From a virus, in the UHGV virus genome UHGV-0007927: a DNA stretch of 36,970 nucleotides. One strand, 5' to 3'. Under the pieces are notes generated by a model that searched no databases, was not told the origin of the DNA, and worked only from the letters and a program-made list of their open reading frames with translations. The position numbers and the translations under genes are program-made. This document shows positions 4,158-34,043 of this stretch, piece after piece; positions within the stretch are counted from its first letter, which is position 1, and each line of letters begins with the position of its first letter.

Positions 4158-4580
4158 TTACTTAACCAATGACGCTGCATATTCAATTAGGAATAACTTA
4201 GGTGCAAGCCAAATCTTCAACCATTCGAAATTGAAGGCAATAATTAAAACACCAATAATTGAGCCAAATATAGGAGCAAATACAGTGCATATATCGTAAT
4301 AAAACGAAGATATAAAATATCCATCACTTGGACATCCATCGAAAGACGTCCATCTCTCGCCATTATTTCTTGCCGTTCTTGCAAAACTAGGAAGTTTCAT
4401 TGCTGCAATTAAAAGCAACAACCCAGTCACTTGGAAAAGTGCGCTATGGACAAAACTCCATATTAGCAACTGATGAACAACATCAGGAATCTGTGCCTGG
4501 CTAAATGAAACAGCCGCGTCTATTCCATTGCTGGCTTTTTGCAGTAGTTCTACGAGAATCTTGTTTGCTTGTTCTTCCAT
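4158..4580 (-). CDS. two-TM membrane protein, accessory gene between N and cIII (ral/sieB position)
   Basis: 140 aa, ATG with GAGGT RBS; hydrophobic segments VHQLLIWSFVHSALFQVTGLLLLIAAM and ICTVFAPIFGSIIGVLIIAF; visibly AT-rich; own terminator downstream. Confidence 0.6.
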   Translation of the reverse strand: MEEQANKILVELLQKASNGIDAAVSFSQAQIPDVVHQLLIWSFVHSALFQVTGLLLLIAAMKLPSFARTARNNGERWTSFDGCPSDGYFISSFYYDICTVFAPIFGSIIGVLIIAFNFEWLKIWLAPKLFLIEYAASLVK

Positions 4581-4638: not shown

Positions 4639-5022
4639 TCATCTCGCCGTCAGTTGTTTTGATTTCCGGTATCCTGCTGCGTAAAGAGCTACATCTGGAA
4701 GACATACACCAGTTTCTGGTTGCTTATGTCCAAACTCATTCGCGAACACAATGGCCGCTCGCTCCAGATTGCGTCTGTATTCTTTCTGTTGCCAGATCAC
4801 GTCCTGTGCCATGAACTTAATTGGCTTAGCGTCTTCTATGCGCTCAGGCGTTTCGTGAGTACCTTTAGCCTGAATCTGCGCTCTGCTTAGAGTAGGGCGG
4901 TGTAATACTTCTGAACTTATTGCTTCTTCGCGGGCCAGCACGCCGTTAGCTAATGCCTTTGCCTTTAAACGCTCACGACGACGAGAACGTGAATTGCCTT
5001 TGAACTGAGTTCTGCGTGTCAT
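4639..5022 (-). CDS. N: N-like transcription antiterminator
   Basis: 127 aa; arginine-rich N-terminal motif (NSRSRRRERLKAKA); C-terminus ...VALYAAGYRKSKQLTAR resembles P22 gene-24-type N proteins; strong CAGGAGG RBS; first gene downstream of PL. Confidence 0.8.
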   Translation of the reverse strand: MTRRTQFKGNSRSRRRERLKAKALANGVLAREEAISSEVLHRPTLSRAQIQAKGTHETPERIEDAKPIKFMAQDVIWQQKEYRRNLERAAIVFANEFGHKQPETGVCLPDVALYAAGYRKSKQLTAR

Positions 5023-5187
5023 ATAGACCTCCTGATGAACTTTGGTGGTGTGGTAGGTGGGAGACCCATTTCGACCTGTTTCGGCCTACTTCAATTCGGC
5101 AATAGTCCCGCAGGCCTCGCCGCTTTACGTGCGACATATTCCCGTCCATGAACCCTTCACCACACCCCAAAGTTCACTTTGGTTATT

Positions 5188-5202
5188 GCGCTTTGTCAGC
5201 GC
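5188..5202 (-). promoter_or_regulatory. nutL boxB-like hairpin
   Basis: Minus strand reads GCGCTGACAAAGCGC, matching the P22-type boxB as I remember it; lies between PL and N. No boxA found. Confidence 0.55.
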
Positions 5203-5263
5203 CGTAGATTCATATTCGAATCGTTGTATATTCACCGCCCTGGTGAGTAGTGCGTCCTGCTGA

Positions 5264-5490: not shown

Positions 5491-5516
5491 AAAGAAAACC
5501 CGGCGCTGAGGCCGGG
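5491..5516 (-). terminator. intrinsic terminator closing the cI-downstream cassette
   Basis: Minus-strand hairpin CCCGGCctcagcGCCGGG followed by TTTTCTTT, immediately after the stop at 5524. Confidence 0.6.
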
Positions 5517-5523
5517 TTGTGTG

Positions 5524-5775
5524 TTACTTAAGAACGAGTCCGTTTAAGGCATCAAGGATTTTGGAAACATAACTTCCAAAAATGTAGGCGCAAAATGCGA
5601 ACACGAAACTGACAACGACCGCAGATGCCTTGATGGTGATTTTTGCTGAGCTAATGCTTGTCTCAATACCTGACAGACGAGAATCTACAGATTTTATATC
5701 TGACTTTACTTCAGCGAGATCGCGCTTGATGTATTCAACATCAGACTCTAGCTTTGCAACTCTAGCCTCAAGCAT
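5524..5775 (-). CDS. small coiled-coil protein with C-terminal transmembrane anchor (rex-position cassette, gene 2)
   Basis: ORF 5524..5895; the ATG at 5775 has a strong GGAGGT RBS and gives 83 aa: MLEARVAKLESDVEYIKRDLAEVKSDIKSVDSRL... then hydrophobic ASAVVVSFVFAFCAYIFGSYV. The upstream ATG at 5895 (123 aa) has only a weak RBS. AT-rich. Confidence 0.55.
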   Translation of the reverse strand: MLEARVAKLESDVEYIKRDLAEVKSDIKSVDSRLSGIETSISSAKITIKASAVVVSFVFAFCAYIFGSYVSKILDALNGLVLK

Positions 5776-5881
5776 GTTACCTCCGCCGTTTCCTCCACCA
5801 TGCCGTGAGTATGCATCATCAGTGGAATAGTGTCCAATTGGGCGAGATATGTTTTGATTTGGACGAAGCTGAGCAACCTTG

Positions 5882-6319
5882 TTATCTAAACTCATCGCGA
5901 ACTGATCCTGTTATCTTCACGTCAAAAAACGAACTTTTTACATCAATTACTTCGCCTTTATCAGGATTAACCAGTGATGCTCTAACTTCGAATATCCCAG
6001 GCTTGATAATTTTCACCCTTGGGAAGTTAATTCTCATAGAAGTTGATACGATGGTTTCTCCATCGTTGGCTTCTGCTACCGTAAAAAACTTATGGTTGGA
6101 GTACAGTTTTGTGTCAATTGGTATCGGTATTTCTTGAGCATTGAAAACCTCAATGCCTATGGAATATTTTTTTGTAGCCTTAAGGCCGATAAAAAAAGCT
6201 CCAAATGATAGATCCACTTCATGGGAGTCTTTATCCATTTCATAGATAAGAACTGGAGTTACTGGGTTGCCTTCATCCATCGCAATCGGAATGATATAAG
6301 AAATACGTTCTTTAATCAT
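5882..6319 (-). CDS. hypothetical soluble protein (rex-position cassette, gene 1)
   Basis: 145 aa; ATG 7 nt after the cI stop; no TM segments and no motif recognised; AT-rich; does not resemble RexA (about 279 aa) or RexB (four TM helices). Confidence 0.55.
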   Translation of the reverse strand: MIKERISYIIPIAMDEGNPVTPVLIYEMDKDSHEVDLSFGAFFIGLKATKKYSIGIEVFNAQEIPIPIDTKLYSNHKFFTVAEANDGETIVSTSMRINFPRVKIIKPGIFEVRASLVNPDKGEVIDVKSSFFDVKITGSVRDEFR

Positions 6320-6326
6320 TTACGTG

Positions 6327-7125
<799 letters not shown>

Positions 7126-7131
7126 TACTAA

Positions 7132-7341
<210 letters not shown>

Positions 7342-7479: not shown

Positions 7480-7776
7480 ATGACACAAACAAGTTACAGC
7501 AAACTATCCCAGCGCGACGTTGATCGCGCAGAAACGGATTTACTCATCAACCTGTCAACGCTTACCCAGCGCGGTCTGGCAAAGATGATTGGCTGTCATG
7601 AATCGAAGATAAGCAGAACAGACTGGAGGTTTATAGCTTCGGTCTTGTGTGCTTTCGGAATGGCATCAGACATCAGTCCGATTAGCAGGGCTTTTAAGTA
7701 TGCGCTTGATGAAATCACAAAGAAAAAATCCCCGGCCGCCACCGAGGATTTTAAGCAAATTGATATGCAATTCTGA
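7480..7776 (+). CDS. cII-like transcriptional activator
   Basis: 98 aa in the cII position; HTH-like segment (TQRGLAKMIGCHESKISR) and a C-terminal ...KKKSPAATEDFKQIDMQF resembling the lambda CII tail (...KKRPAATERSEQIQMEF). Confidence 0.6.
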   Translation: MTQTSYSKLSQRDVDRAETDLLINLSTLTQRGLAKMIGCHESKISRTDWRFIASVLCAFGMASDISPISRAFKYALDEITKKKSPAATEDFKQIDMQF

Positions 7777-31221: not shown

Positions 31222-31551
31222 TTAGTCATCCATGGATGGATTGAGCTTATCTCGTGTTGATGTGGCAATTTTCCCAACATTTTTCAACCAAGATTTTAAG
31301 AAGGATATGTCGTCCTTAATATCATGAATATCCTCATTCTTTATACGATCAACCTTATCCTCTAAGCTCTCTATAGAACGCTCAATGCTAGACAGAGAGA
31401 TTTTTAAGTCCCCTTGCTCACGTTCCAGTGAGGATTTGAGAGCACAATATTCGTTTTCTAGAATTCCTATTTTTTTTGTTAGAGAGTGCATTCGATACTC
31501 ATACACCAAACCAGAAAAGACTAATGCAGCCAACAGAAACCATTCAAGCAC
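31222..31551 (-). CDS. small membrane protein: N-terminal TM helix plus acidic coiled coil (sieA-position accessory gene)
   Basis: 109 aa; GTG start 5 nt after AAGGAGG; MLEWFLLAALVFSGLVY then heptad-rich ...LKSSLEREQGDLKISLSSIERSIESLEDKVDRIKNEDIHDIKDDISFLKSWLKN...; AT-rich; 58 bp downstream of and co-oriented with the repressor-like gene. Confidence 0.55.
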   Translation of the reverse strand: MLEWFLLAALVFSGLVYEYRMHSLTKKIGILENEYCALKSSLEREQGDLKISLSSIERSIESLEDKVDRIKNEDIHDIKDDISFLKSWLKNVGKIATSTRDKLNPSMDD

Positions 31552-31611
31552 ACCAACCTCCTTAGTTTTGAACAGGATACCAGATGATAATGTGTCGCTT
31601 CCTAAAGGATA

Positions 31612-32253
31612 TCAAAGCAACGGGATTTCAAGGTAAACTGCGGTTGCCAAAATACTAACATCTTCATTTCTAACAAGAATATTAGGATACATTGGGTTTA
31701 GGGATACTAAGTTTGTCTCTATTTCACCAATGTAAACCTGCTTGAAGCTCAATATTTGCTCTTTATCCAATGATGCTATTACATAATCTTTGCTTTTAGC
31801 TTTTACTAGAGGGCTGAACGTGACAACTGATCCTCTGGGAAAGCTAATACCTGAACTTGTAGTCATAGCTTCACCTTCAATAGTCAATGCAAATGCAGAG
31901 TCACCAACATTGTATATTGCCGGATGAAATCTAGACGATGAATGTTCACCTGTGTTTAGGTAATGCATAACTTCATCTAGTTTGAGGATTGGTATTTGCT
32001 TTACCAGAACGTCAGGCATGACGTTTTTTGTTCCAGGCCCCTGACCTTCACCCAGAGCTAACCACTCAGCCGTAGTGCCTAATGCGTTGGCTAATGCCTG
32101 CAATACACGAAGCCGTGGTTTAGCCTCACCACCCTCGTATGCAGCTATTTGACGTTGAACAACACCAGCTAATTTTGACAACTGCGCCTGCGTCATACCC
32201 CTAGACTGTCTTGCCAGAGATACTCTTGATGGGAATTGATCGTCAAAATTCAT
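31612..32253 (-). CDS. repressor-like protein: N-terminal HTH (XRE type) plus C-terminal S24 LexA/CI-like domain with Ser-to-Ala at the catalytic position
   Basis: 213 aa; HTH MTQAQLSKLAGVVQRQIAAYEGGEAKP; C-domain aligns with lambda CI (AFALTIEGEAMTT vs [14 protein letters not shown]), so the nucleophile Ser is Ala; Lys retained (SFKQV vs FKKL). Confidence 0.75.
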   Translation of the reverse strand: MNFDDQFPSRVSLARQSRGMTQAQLSKLAGVVQRQIAAYEGGEAKPRLRVLQALANALGTTAEWLALGEGQGPGTKNVMPDVLVKQIPILKLDEVMHYLNTGEHSSSRFHPAIYNVGDSAFALTIEGEAMTTSSGISFPRGSVVTFSPLVKAKSKDYVIASLDKEQILSFKQVYIGEIETNLVSLNPMYPNILVRNEDVSILATAVYLEIPLL

Positions 32254-32352: not shown

Positions 32353-32526
32353 ATGACTGAAAAGATATCTTCCATCAAGCCGCGTCAGGTTCGTTTTACA
32401 GAAAAGGTTGATTCACATATCCGCGAATCAGCAAAAAGATGCCATAGGTCAATTCAGGCAGAGATAGCTTATCGAATGGAGTTATTGATGAAACTTGAGG
32501 CAAAGGGCGATGTTGTCATCCAATAA
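32353..32526 (+). CDS. ribbon-helix-helix (Arc/Mnt-type) regulator, 57 aa, below the ORF-track cutoff
   Basis: ATG 6 nt after CAGGAG; MTEKISSIKPRQVRFTEKVDSHIRESAKRCHRSIQAEIAYRMELLMKLEAKGDVVIQ, with a beta-strand then two helices; divergent from the repressor-like gene, upstream of the antirepressor. Confidence 0.5.
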   Translation: MTEKISSIKPRQVRFTEKVDSHIRESAKRCHRSIQAEIAYRMELLMKLEAKGDVVIQ

Positions 32527-32599
32527 AAATAGTGAAGCCCGGCAGTGCGCGAACACAAACCGGGCCTCTATGTCAGTAACCGTATGCAAGGAAACTAAC

Positions 32600-33226
32600 A
32601 TGAATATTGTAGCAAAATCAGATTACAACTTCCACGGAGTTGAGTTGGTGCCCACCCGTGATATGCATGGTGTTTGGTTTACATCATCTAATATTGCATC
32701 TGCACTTAAATATGCAAATAGCCGTGCAGTAACAATGATTTATAACAAGTATAGCGATGAGTTTAGCGCCGGAATGACTCAGGTACTCGAAGTGAGTACC
32801 TCAGGAAATTATCGCAAAAAAGTGCGAGTTTTCTCACTACGCGGTGCCCACCTAATCGCGATGTTTGCTCGCACTCCGGTAGCCAAAGAGTTCCGCCGCT
32901 GGGTGCTGGATATTTTGGATCGGCAGGCAGAATGCTCACCGATTGCAAAACAGTTTACTGACGAAGAACTGGTTAATCTCTGCTACTTACAATTGTGGAT
33001 GGAGAAGAGTCAACAAATGTGCAAACACATCTACCCAGGAATGAAGCAAATTGGTTCTGAGCTTTCAGGAAGAATTTACGATATTGCATATGAGACTCGC
33101 TATATGTCAGAAGAAACCAAGAAATCACTTCTTCGTGAAATGAAGAATCTTGATACCAACAATTTTGTCGTAAAGAACGCTCAGCCAATGCTGACAAAAC
33201 TGCGCGGCGAGGAATGGATTCATTGA
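32600..33226 (+). CDS. antirepressor-like protein with BRO-N/KilA-N-type N-terminal domain
   Basis: ORF 32495..33226; the ATG at 32600 (AAGGAAA RBS) gives MNIVAKSDYNFHGVELVPTRDMHGVWFTSSNIASALKYANSRAV...KEFRRWVLDIL; the family call is by pattern only. Confidence 0.55.
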   Translation: MNIVAKSDYNFHGVELVPTRDMHGVWFTSSNIASALKYANSRAVTMIYNKYSDEFSAGMTQVLEVSTSGNYRKKVRVFSLRGAHLIAMFARTPVAKEFRRWVLDILDRQAECSPIAKQFTDEELVNLCYLQLWMEKSQQMCKHIYPGMKQIGSELSGRIYDIAYETRYMSEETKKSLLREMKNLDTNNFVVKNAQPMLTKLRGEEWIH

Positions 33227-33314
33227 TTGGTGCGCCGGACGGCGCAAAAAGAAAACCGCCAGTGTGCTGCTGGCGGCCTATGTCACACCCTTACTACCAC
33301 ATAAGGAATGCCTA

Positions 33315-34043
33315 ATGACTTTGAAGAATGTAGCAAACATCGGATCCGTTGTCACGGATAAAACCATTGACAGCCAGCGCCTTCTTGAGATGGTAAATCA
33401 GGCTCGTAGACAGTGCGGTGAGCCGGAGGTTCGTAATAACAAATTCATCGAGAAAATTGAAGATGAATTGGATGGAGAGCACTACACAAAAAGTGTAGTG
33501 CAAAAAGCGAACAAAACTTCGATGGTTATCATTGAGATGTCAATCAAGCAAGCATTGCGAGTTGCCGCTCGCGAGTCAAAAGCCGTTCGCCGCTCACTGG
33601 TAGACCAACTTGAAAGTATGCAAGAAGCGCACATTAAAAGCGGTAAATCAGCGAGTGGACTTGTTGAGTATCGTCAAGCGCGAACATTGAAAATGACGGT
33701 TGAAGCTGTTACCAATCTGTTCGATCTGATGCCAAATCTTGCGCCTGAGGCAAAGCAGACAGCGGCAGCAAGTATAATCAACCCGCTCGTTGGTTTTAAT
33801 GCAATACCTCTTCCGGCAATAGAAGAGCATTACTACTCAGCAGGGGAGGTTGCAGAGCAGCTTGGAGTAACGGCCAACAAGATTGGTCGCATTGCTAACG
33901 CAAACAACCTCAAAACTGAGCAGTACGGGAAGTTCTTCCTGGATAAATCGGCGCATTCCAGCAAACAGGTAGAGGCGTTCCGTTACAATTCTGAAGGCGT
34001 TAAAGCACTACAACACCTACTACATGGCTCAAATGTGGCGTAA
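33315..34043 (+). CDS. second antirepressor-like / phage regulatory protein (ORF6N plus KilA-C-like architecture, tentative)
   Basis: The ATG at 33315 with AAGGAA RBS gives 243 aa; C-terminal ...YYSAGEVAEQLGVTANKIGRIANANNLKTEQYGKFF... resembles antirepressor C-terminal DNA-binding modules. Confidence 0.4.
   Translation: MTLKNVANIGSVVTDKTIDSQRLLEMVNQARRQCGEPEVRNNKFIEKIEDELDGEHYTKSVVQKANKTSMVIIEMSIKQALRVAARESKAVRRSLVDQLESMQEAHIKSGKSASGLVEYRQARTLKMTVEAVTNLFDLMPNLAPEAKQTAAASIINPLVGFNAIPLPAIEEHYYSAGEVAEQLGVTANKIGRIANANNLKTEQYGKFFLDKSAHSSKQVEAFRYNSEGVKALQHLLHGSNVA

What the first reader, a model, noticed from the sequence alone, without database searches (positions are those of the whole stretch)
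5491..6326. AT-rich two-gene cassette in the rexA/rexB slot between cI and OL/PL
The flanks are lambda immunity sequence (cI upstream, OL1-3/PL downstream), but between them lie a 145-aa soluble protein (5882..6319) and an 83-aa coiled-coil protein with a C-terminal TM anchor (5524..5775) instead of RexA (about 279 aa) and RexB (four-TM, about 144 aa). The first gene starts 7 nt after the cI stop, and the cassette ends in its own terminator, so it should be co-transcribed with the repressor from PRM in lysogens. That is the classic expression pattern of prophage exclusion and abortive-infection genes. The architecture (soluble partner plus small membrane protein) loosely parallels Rex logic without resembling it in sequence. 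I recognise neither protein, so this is the best candidate for an undescribed lysogen-expressed defence module.
Basis: partly seen in the sequence, partly recalled or inferred. Interest (0 to 1): 0.85.

Follow-up and report, generated by a model that had tools for sequence, protein, structure and literature searches.

The report
Uncharacterised two-gene cassette replacing lambda rexAB
A prophage with the lambda repressor carries, in place of the rexA/rexB exclusion genes, a conserved pair of unstudied genes (a small all-beta soluble protein and a tail-anchored coiled-coil membrane protein) that sits next to repressor genes in many enterobacterial phages; it is a credible but untested anti-phage candidate.

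Summary
An ~810-bp insert (window 5519-6326) replaces lambda rexA/rexB exactly, between the cI stop codon and the t_imm terminator. It carries two overlapping minus-strand genes: ORF1 (5882..6319, 145 aa) and ORF2. ORF2 is 123 aa (5524..5895), not 83 aa. The terminator lies in DNA shared with lambda, so it is not private to the cassette.

Neither protein resembles RexA, RexB or any PADLOC, Pfam or NCBIfam family. ORF2 gives only a sub-threshold XhlA hit. Both belong to PHROG families of unknown function.

New here: the two genes are an obligate pair across Enterobacterales temperate phages. They almost always lie directly downstream of a maintenance repressor, and those repressors belong to at least three unrelated types. 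The membrane protein is modular: a variable disordered N-tail that tracks the partner, an invariant Gly-rich and coiled-coil core, and swappable C-terminal anchors. It also pairs with two other partner families.

This fits a lysogen-expressed exclusion or abortive-infection module, but no function is shown. The epsilon34 homologues (genes 44/45) were already noted in 2008 as rexAB-like in position. Verdict: a real, uncharacterised candidate of moderate interest.

The parts
5519..6326 (-). DNA not shared with lambda (~810 bp, GC 40.1%). It replaces lambda 35827..37226, i.e. rexB, rexA and the spacer.
   Evidence: Pairwise alignments with lambda J02459 show identity resuming at the cI stop codon and at the end of the t_imm hairpin. 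GC.
5882..6319 (-). ORF1: 145 aa, soluble, acidic (pI 5.4), predicted all-beta and probably an Ig-like sandwich. It has no TM segment or signal peptide. Proposed sensor or partner protein.
   Evidence: phrog_5893 E 8.5e-65. No Pfam, NCBIfam or PADLOC hit. The single-sequence AF2 model is all-beta but low-confidence (pLDDT 57.7). Fold searches give only generic beta-sandwich matches. Maximum KD19 is 0.81. dN/dS is 0.11.
5524..5895 (-). ORF2: 123 aa tail-anchored membrane protein. Residues 1-37 are a disordered variable tail, 33-40 are the GGGNGGGN motif, ~40-92 are a heptad coiled coil, and 92-110 are a single C-terminal TM followed by a 13-aa tail.
   Evidence: phrog_6136 E 3.6e-46 covers residues 1-123. 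AF2 gives residues 1-37 below pLDDT 50 and one helix over 38-122 at ~90. Heptad a/d positions are 93% hydrophobic and KD19 is 2.11 at 92-110. The Pfam XhlA hit scores 19.3 bits, below the gathering score of 34.7.
5524..5775 (-). Possible internal-start product: 83 aa from Met41, coiled coil plus TM without the N-tail. It is hypothetical.
   Evidence: GGAGGT lies 4 nt upstream of ATG 5775. A Met directly after the Gly-rich motif occurs in 52 of 56 distinct homologous genes. SD enrichment is not significant at the level of sequence clusters (5 of 11 against 4.3 expected).
5497..5518 (-). Intrinsic terminator hairpin plus T-run. It is identical to lambda t_imm and marks the end of the PRM operon.
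6327..7040 (-). cI repressor, lambda specificity, 235/237 identical. First gene of the inferred PRM operon.
7041..7140 (.). OR3-OR2-OR1 with PRM and PR. 119/121 identical to lambda, with one G-to-A change in OR1.

Best explanation
The cassette is a two-gene operon extension of the lambda-type cI gene. It is transcribed from PRM in lysogens and ends at t_imm. It most likely encodes a prophage-borne exclusion module that acts at the cytoplasmic face of the inner membrane.

ORF2 is a tail-anchored protein. Its long parallel coiled coil, rich in Val/Ile/Leu at a/d positions, probably oligomerises. Its disordered N-terminal tail is the proposed docking site for ORF1, a soluble beta-sandwich protein.

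Proposed mechanism (inferred, not shown): in the resting lysogen ORF1 holds ORF2 inactive. An infecting phage component engages ORF1, and ORF2 then perturbs the membrane, with depolarisation or premature lysis, so the infection aborts. This is the same logic as RexA/RexB but with unrelated proteins.

Shown here: the gene structure, the precise replacement of rexAB, the obligate pairing, the repressor linkage and the modular evolution. Inferred: co-transcription, cytoplasmic topology, the ORF1-tail interaction, and any anti-phage activity.
For: 1. The cassette swaps precisely for rexAB between lambda-identical cI/PRM and t_imm. The gap after cI is 7 nt, the two genes overlap by 14 nt, and there is no internal terminator.
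2. The pairing is obligate.
   - 59 of 78 IMG/VR loci found with the ORF2 profile have an ORF1-family gene immediately upstream (HMM E <= 4e-17).
   - In the reverse scan, 48 of 49 ORF1-family genes are followed, with a 13-31 nt overlap, by a 100-140 aa protein ending in a hydrophobic, TM-like C-terminal stretch. The one exception is cut by a contig end.
3. The pair is linked to lysogeny-maintenance repressors of unrelated types: several S24/HTH lineages, ~128-aa HTH/Phage_CI_repr proteins, and Arc/Mnt. Nine of 10 sampled upstream proteins are of this kind. A terminator-like hairpin follows in 45 of 57 distinct downstream regions.
4. The evolution is modular, as in defence systems.
   - ORF1 identity tracks the ORF2 N-tail (rho 0.48) but not its C-part (rho 0.14).
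   - In 74 sequence-pair comparisons ORF1 is >=70% identical while the C-part is <40% identical. In 137 comparisons ORF1 is <35% identical while the C-part is >=70% identical.
   - The same core also pairs with a Zn-ribbon-like family (phrog_4293) and a 90-aa family (phrog_4231).
5. The slot is a known home of abortive-infection genes: rexAB and bstA (PMC8585504).
6. The architecture matches the proposed mechanism: a disordered tail, one long helix and a single C-terminal TM, with weak similarity to XhlA.
7. Both genes are under purifying selection.
Against: - There is no phenotype, expression or interaction data.
- No match was found to any PADLOC (2023), Pfam or NCBIfam family.
- The ORF1 model is low-confidence, so the Ig-like fold is only a soft inference.
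- The covariation between ORF1 and the ORF2 N-tail can be explained by physical linkage of adjacent DNA alone.
- Free swapping of unrelated TM anchors suggests the TM may be a mere anchor rather than a specific pore-former. That favours the injection-block rival.
- The cassette is rare: 14 of 5426 complete E. coli genomes and 8 hits among 1.84 billion cluster representatives.
- I could not read Brenes & Laub 2025 (Cell Host Microbe), which screened E. coli prophage defences.
Confidence: 0.4

Rival explanations
1. Superinfection exclusion by blocking DNA entry. ORF2 is only a membrane anchor and oligomerisation scaffold. It concentrates the ORF1 beta-sandwich at the cytoplasmic face of the inner membrane, where ORF1 interferes with the DNA-translocation machinery of incoming phages. 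This would be functionally like P22 SieA, HK97 gp15 or T4 Imm. The cell survives.
For: - The C-terminal anchors are swapped freely between unrelated sequences, while the cytoplasmic core and partner are kept. That is expected if the TM is a generic anchor.
- The pair is prophage-expressed and repressor-linked. In some loci it lies downstream of an Mnt-type repressor, the position of sieA in P22 (the P22 map is from my own knowledge; SieA paper PMC10461980).
Against: - The predicted topology puts almost all of ORF2, and all of ORF1, in the cytoplasm, with only ~13 residues outside.
- There is no similarity to any annotated Sie family in PHROGs.
Confidence: 0.2
2. A regulator of the prophage's own life cycle rather than a defence. 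It might tune induction, the lysis-lysogeny switch or lysis timing. Precedents are 434 Hex (on the PRM mRNA, blocks RecA-stimulated repressor cleavage) and RexA (biases the switch). Alternatively it could be an XhlA-like holin accessory.
For: - Genes on PRM transcripts can serve lysogen stability: Hex (PMC3564112) and RexA (abstract of PMC11077077).
- ORF2 is weakly XhlA-like. As I recall, XhlA belongs to the PBSX lysis module.
Against: - The pair follows repressors with and without an S24 autocleavage domain, including short HTH and Arc/Mnt types, so a Hex-like, cleavage-specific role is unlikely.
- It is not in the lysis cassette of this prophage.
- ORF1 shows no DNA-binding family hit.
Confidence: 0.12
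3. A lysogenic-conversion or host-fitness moron acting on the host envelope, for example stress tolerance or virulence. It would have no role against phages.
For: - The cassette is present in pathogenic lineages, including an EPEC E2348/69 prophage with 100% identical proteins.
- Many PRM- or prophage-expressed morons serve host fitness. bstA was first linked to virulence phenotypes (PMC8585504).
Against: - Both proteins are predicted to be cytoplasmic or inner-membrane, with no exported domain.
- Rapid diversification of partner and anchor is more typical of conflict systems.
Confidence: 0.1
4. An addiction (toxin-antitoxin-like) pair that stabilises the prophage. ORF2 would be a membrane toxin and ORF1 its labile neutraliser.
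For: - The two genes are small, overlapping and always together. The membrane protein is almost never found without an upstream partner.
Against: - There is no promoter or autoregulatory DNA-binding component of its own. Expression depends on the repressor operon.
- The putative neutraliser is encoded first and is larger and well folded, unlike typical labile antitoxins.
Confidence: 0.08

Closest known systems
Lambda RexA/RexB (PRM-operon abortive-infection system)
   Same: - Identical genomic slot and flanks: cI upstream, t_imm, then OL/PL downstream.
- Two genes, a soluble protein first and a small membrane protein second.
- Expected lysogenic expression.
   Different: - No sequence similarity.
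- ORF1 is 145 aa and all-beta with no DUF4747, against RexA at 279 aa.
- ORF2 has one C-terminal TM plus a coiled coil, against four TM segments in RexB.
- The insert is 810 bp against 1400 bp.
Salmonella phage epsilon34 genes 45/44 (also g341c and NM-3)
   Same: - True homologues. ORF1 is 74-76% identical, and the ORF2 N-terminal 67 residues are 61% identical.
- The position downstream of the prophage repressor is the same.
- Noted in 2008 as rexAB-like in position (PMC2629481).
   Different: - The repressor is different (59% identity).
- The C-terminal coiled coil and TM module of the membrane protein differ.
- Function is equally unknown.
BstA of prophage BTP1 and relatives
   Same: - A prophage defence gene conserved directly downstream of, and presumably co-transcribed with, the repressor.
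- The association holds across diverse repressors (PMC8585504).
   Different: - BstA is a single protein, for which Owen et al. annotate a putative KilA-N domain, acting at phage DNA replication sites.
- It is not homologous to either protein here, has no membrane component, and carries an aba self-immunity element.
Mycobacteriophage Sbash gp30/gp31 (Rex-like pair)
   Same: - Prophage-expressed pair of a soluble protein and a membrane protein.
- Proposed to collapse membrane potential on infection (PMC6426596).
   Different: - Sbash gp30 has DUF4747 and gp31 has four TM segments, so it is a true Rex-like family.
- The pair here has neither feature.
PBSX XhlA (Pfam PF10779)
   Same: - Small protein with an N-terminal coiled coil and a C-terminal TM.
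- Weak profile similarity over the coiled coil.
- NCBI names some homologues 'hemolysin XhlA'.
   Different: - The score is below the gathering threshold (19.3 against 34.7 bits).
- The gene is in the immunity region, not the lysis cassette.
- It has an extra disordered tail and Gly-rich motif and an obligate upstream partner.

Membership tests
RexAB | RexA-type protein (about 279 aa, DUF4747 domain) | tested here: not met
   The Pfam scan of ORF1 gives no DUF4747 hit and nothing above threshold. BLASTP against lambda RexA gives E = 10. DUF4747 in RexA is taken from PMC6426596.
RexAB | RexB-type four-TM membrane protein | tested here: not met
   ORF2 has a single hydrophobic segment at 92-110 and forms one long helix. 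BLASTP against RexB gives 20.8 bits over 49 residues.
RexAB | Located in the cI-PRM operon between cI and t_imm | tested here: met
   Alignments with lambda and the terminator scan.
RexAB | Excludes T4 rII and other phages through membrane depolarisation | not testable with these tools
   This needs plating and membrane-potential assays.
XhlA (PF10779) | Profile score at or above the Pfam gathering threshold (34.7 bits) | tested here: not met
   ORF2 scores 19.3 bits, E 1.3e-3. Sixteen of 24 relatives give hits at E <= 0.01, with the best at 8.3e-6.
XhlA (PF10779) | Coiled coil followed by a C-terminal TM helix | tested here: met
XhlA (PF10779) | Encoded in a lysis cassette beside holin and endolysin genes | tested here: not met
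   The gene lies in the immunity region between cI and OL/PL. In related loci it lies downstream of repressors.
Catalogued anti-phage defence systems (PADLOC-DB 2.0.0) | Significant match to any system protein model | tested here: not met
   ORF1 gives no hits. ORF2 gives only CorA-like at E 0.0039 and LmuB at E 0.034, both coiled-coil noise. Databases newer than 2023 were not available.
BstA | Single protein homologous to BstA (Owen et al. annotate a putative KilA-N domain) | tested here: not met
   Neither protein matches a KilA-N or any other significant Pfam family. The KilA-N annotation of BstA is from PMC8585504. No direct comparison with a BstA sequence was made.
Repressor-linked prophage accessory (moron) operon | Conserved position directly downstream of the maintenance repressor on the same strand, ending in a terminator | tested here: met
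   True in the window, in epsilon34 and in IMG/VR loci. There, 48 of 49 ORF1-family genes have an upstream repressor-size ORF, 9 of 10 sampled upstream proteins are repressor families, and 45 of 57 downstream regions have hairpins.
Type II toxin-antitoxin | Own autoregulated promoter with a DNA-binding antitoxin | tested here: not met
   ORF1 starts 7 nt after cI with no consensus promoter upstream. Neither protein has a DNA-binding domain hit.

The most novel reading that the evidence does not exclude
The pair is the founding example of a modular, repressor-linked abortive-infection family spread across Enterobacterales temperate phages. A constant Gly-rich and coiled-coil core on a tail-anchored effector is combined with interchangeable sensor partners (an Ig-like family, a Zn-ribbon family and a 90-aa family), each docking on a matching disordered N-tail, and with interchangeable membrane anchors. 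A conserved internal Met behind an SD-like Gly-codon run may additionally yield a tail-less short isoform (the 83-aa product), giving a dual-start control like holin/antiholin.
Probability: 0.25. Interest if true: 0.75.

Novelty: new variant of a known kind. Interest (0 to 1): 0.5.

Why it matters
The cI-N interval of lambdoid phages already yielded two classic abortive-infection systems, rexAB and bstA. A third, unrelated cassette would add a new kind of sensor/effector logic, particularly one that is obligately paired, travels with at least three repressor classes, and shows sensor and anchor swapping. It would also be a compact, easily testable system of ~810 bp. Its native context is almost entirely lambda, the best understood genetic background. 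Because it is present in EPEC E2348/69 and in Salmonella P22-like prophages, it could also affect phage susceptibility of pathogens. If it has no anti-phage role, it still marks a widespread lysogen-expressed membrane complex of unknown purpose.

Tried and rejected
- **Structure with alignments.** Only single-sequence models were possible. ORF1 came out at pLDDT 57.7.
- **Profile against PDB sequences.** ORF1 gave only Ig I-set-like noise at E ~0.4. ORF2 gave only coiled-coil noise.
- **Context look-up by protein id.** I used the search for related loci instead.
- **Diverse ORF1 profile.** It was too divergent for pattern scanning.
- **Internal ribosome-binding-site hypothesis.** GGAGG upstream of the conserved Met is enriched in raw counts (20 of 30 against 14 expected, P = 0.012). 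It is not enriched at cluster level (5 of 11 against 4.3, P = 0.43). The hypothesis is kept only as an idea.
- **Rfam.** Nothing was found in the window.
- **Literature.** Searches by accession, PHROG context, XhlA plus defence, and hotspot terms found no functional study of either protein. Brenes & Laub 2025 could not be read.
- **Plus-strand ORF 5805..6137 (110 aa).** I take it to be a shadow ORF rather than a gene, because strong PHROG matches and purifying selection support the overlapping minus-strand genes.

Full report
**1. What is in the sequence**

The minus strand of window 5491-7140 reads, in order of transcription, as follows.
- A lambda-type OR/PRM region, 119/121 identical to lambda with one G-to-A change in OR1.
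- cI at 6327..7040, 235/237 identical to lambda cI.
- Seven nucleotides later, ORF1 at 5882..6319 (145 aa).
- ORF2 at 5524..5895 (123 aa). Its ATG overlaps the ORF1 stop by 14 nt and is preceded by AGGA.
- Five nucleotides after the ORF2 stop codon, a hairpin plus T-run at 5518..5497 (dG -15.5 kcal/mol, z -3.3).
- OL3-OL1 and PL, then an H-19B/933W-type N gene at 4639..5022.

Alignment with lambda J02459 shows that homology stops exactly at the cI stop codon. It resumes exactly at the end of the hairpin, which is lambda's t_imm. About 810 bp (5519-6326, GC 40.1% against 46.9% for the window) therefore replace the 1400 bp that carry rexB, rexA and the cI-rexA spacer.

The rest of the window is a P22-like prophage, with a P22-type capsid, portal and DNA-transfer protein.

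**2.

- The membrane protein is 123 aa, not 83 aa. The PHROG profile covers residues 1-123. Homologues align from the upstream Met. RefSeq (WP_000050903.1) and the epsilon34 annotation use the overlapping start.
- The terminator belongs to the lambda-homologous flank. Very similar CCCGGC..GCCGGG-T hairpins nevertheless follow the homologous gene in unrelated phages, in 45 of 57 distinct downstream regions. This conserved terminator may serve as the recombination boundary for cassette exchange.

**3. Are the genes real?**

Yes.
- ORF1 matches phrog_5893 (E 8.5e-65) and ORF2 matches phrog_6136 (E 3.6e-46). Both families have unknown function.
- Against the epsilon34 homologues, dN/dS is 0.11 for ORF1 and 0.31 for the shared first 67 codons of ORF2.
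- Identical proteins occur in an EPEC E2348/69 prophage.
- The cassette is rare. It is present in 14 of 5426 complete E. coli genomes. ORF1 has 20 clusters of close relatives and 48 with a family profile, all 'hypothetical' and all from Enterobacterales. An exhaustive phmmer search of 1.84 billion cluster representatives found only 8 hits.

**4. The proteins**

ORF1:
- It has no hydrophobic segment (maximum KD19 0.81) and a pI of 5.4.
- It has no Pfam, NCBIfam or PADLOC match.
- The only model I could make was single-sequence. It is all-beta but low-confidence (pLDDT 57.7, pTM 0.53).

ORF2:
- AlphaFold gives a disordered tail over residues 1-37 and one continuous helix over 38-122 at pLDDT ~90.
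- Residues 40-92 hold a clean heptad register with V/I/L at 93% of a/d positions. Residues 92-110 form the only TM segment (KD19 2.11), followed by a 13-residue tail.
- It is therefore a tail-anchored protein whose bulk is most likely cytoplasmic.
- The Pfam XhlA hit is below threshold (19.3 against 34.7 bits). Sixteen of 24 relatives give similar weak hits.

Neither protein resembles RexA or RexB.

**5. Comparative genomics (the main new result)**

- Scan with the ORF2 profile. It returned 80 IMG/VR loci. In 59 of the 78 loci that have an upstream ORF, that ORF is an ORF1-family member (HMM E <= 4e-17), although identities fall to 12-27%.
- Reverse scan with the ORF1 alignment. All 49 loci with an intact ORF1-family gene were examined. 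In 48 of them it is followed, with a 13-31 nt overlap, by a 100-140 aa protein ending in a hydrophobic, TM-like C-terminal stretch. The exception is cut by the contig end. In 48 it is preceded by a repressor-size ORF.
- Upstream proteins. They are maintenance repressors of unrelated kinds: several S24/HTH lineages, ~128-aa HTH/Phage_CI_repr proteins, and Arc or Arc+Mnt proteins.
- Other partners. The remaining ORF2-like genes pair with two other small partner families. One is a Zn-ribbon-like family (phrog_4293) and the other a 90-aa family (phrog_4231). Both have unknown function.

ORF2 homologues have three segments:
- a variable N-tail;
- an invariant core, GGGNGGG-(D/N)M-xxRVAKLE(S/A)DV;
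- one of several unrelated C-terminal coiled-coil and TM modules.

ORF1 identity tracks the N-tail (Spearman 0.48) much more than the C-part (0.14). In 74 sequence-pair comparisons ORF1 is >=70% identical while the C-part is <40% identical. In 137 comparisons ORF1 is <35% identical while the C-part is >=70% identical. Because the N-tail codons adjoin ORF1 on the DNA, linkage alone could produce this pattern. It is compatible with ORF1 docking on the tail but does not prove it.

**6. Interpretation**

Co-transcription with cI from PRM is a strong inference. The lambda-identical control region, the 7-nt gap, the absence of a terminator before t_imm and the conserved repressor linkage all support it. 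No expression data exist.

The cI-N interval is a documented mosaic hotspot that holds rexAB in lambda and bstA in BTP1, both abortive-infection systems (PMC8585504). Other lambda-immunity prophages carry yet other occupants there, such as a P63C-domain protein and a 253-aa hypothetical protein in PhiR5_2.

Three features are typical of conflict systems: obligate pairing of a soluble and a membrane protein, fast-diverging partners, and partner and anchor swapping.

I therefore favour a lysogen-expressed exclusion module (0.4 for a triggered, Rex-like membrane effector; 0.2 for an entry-blocking variant in which ORF2 is only an anchor). The free exchange of TM anchors is the best argument for the second variant.

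The non-defence rivals are less likely.
- A Hex-like role in repressor cleavage is unlikely, because the pair also follows repressors that lack an S24 domain (Hex: PMC3564112).
- The cassette is not in the lysis region.
- It has no promoter or DNA-binding component of its own.

**7. What is already known**

Villafane et al. 2008 noted that epsilon34 genes 44 and 45 lie downstream of the repressor 'like rexA and rexB' and had no database matches (PMC2629481). The existence of this cassette type and its Rex analogy are therefore not new.

The following appear to be new:
- the obligate pairing across a wide family;
- the association with three repressor classes;
- the three-part modularity of the membrane protein and its alternative partners.

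I found no functional study. I could not read Brenes & Laub 2025.

**8. An untested idea**

A Met right after the Gly-rich motif is present in 52 of 56 distinct homologous genes. An internal start would give a tail-less isoform. However, Gly codons produce SD-like strings by themselves, and the GGAGG enrichment disappears at cluster level.

**9. Verdict**

This is a real, precisely delimited and uncharacterised two-gene cassette in a known defence hotspot. It is a good experimental candidate but not a demonstrated system. Interest 0.5. Novelty: a new variant of a known kind.

Noticed in passing
window 31222..32253 (-) and 32495..34043 (+): There is a second immunity-like region. An S24/HTH repressor (31612..32253) faces two Ant anti-repressors. 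Directly downstream of that repressor, on the same strand, is a ~109-aa protein (31222..31551, phrog_5962, unknown function) with a hydrophobic, TM-like N-terminal stretch and weak coiled-coil-family Pfam hits. This is a second membrane-anchored, apparently coiled-coil protein beside a repressor in the same prophage.
   Followed up: partly
window 4158..4580 (-): A 140-aa protein with hydrophobic segments (phrog_3054, unknown function, no Pfam hit) lies just downstream of N in the PL operon. This is roughly where lambda and P22 carry ral and sieB. It may be another exclusion candidate.
   Followed up: partly
window 5775 (Met41 of ORF2) and homologues in L004-L134: A conserved Met sits immediately after the Gly-rich motif in 52 of 56 distinct homologous genes, often behind GGAGG formed by Gly codons. 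This could be an internal translation start giving a tail-less 83-aa isoform. The statistical support vanishes at the level of sequence clusters.
   Followed up: partly
window 7105 (OR1): There is a single G-to-A difference from lambda inside OR1 (TACCTCTAGCGGTGATA against TACCTCTGGCGGTGATA). The rest of OR/PRM/PR is identical.
   Followed up: no
window 4639..5262 and 7480..7776: The immunity module is a mosaic. Only OL/PL through cro is lambda-like. N is the H-19B/933W type (71% identical to epsilon34 gp43). The CII-like gene at 7480..7776 does not look like lambda cII (judged from my memory of the lambda CII sequence, not compared with a tool). Homology to lambda ends near 5262, left of OL1.
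   Followed up: partly
loci L023-L029, L054, L061-L062 and others, immediately 3' of the ORF2 homologue: Near-identical CCCGGC(C)..(C)GCCGGG hairpins with T-runs follow the cassette in phages whose repressors and flanks are otherwise unrelated. This suggests a conserved terminator that doubles as a recombination boundary for swapping PRM-operon cargo.
   Followed up: partly
loci L045-L047: In some relatives the ORF2 homologue is followed by a further small hydrophobic ORF instead of a terminator (for example VYATFVVIAIALI...). This would be a three-gene variant of the module.
   Followed up: no
loci L050-L053: Here the ORF2-like gene with a Zn-ribbon-like partner is not next to a repressor. 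Where I scanned the upstream protein (L051), it belongs to DUF6246. The membrane core therefore also occurs outside immunity regions.
   Followed up: no
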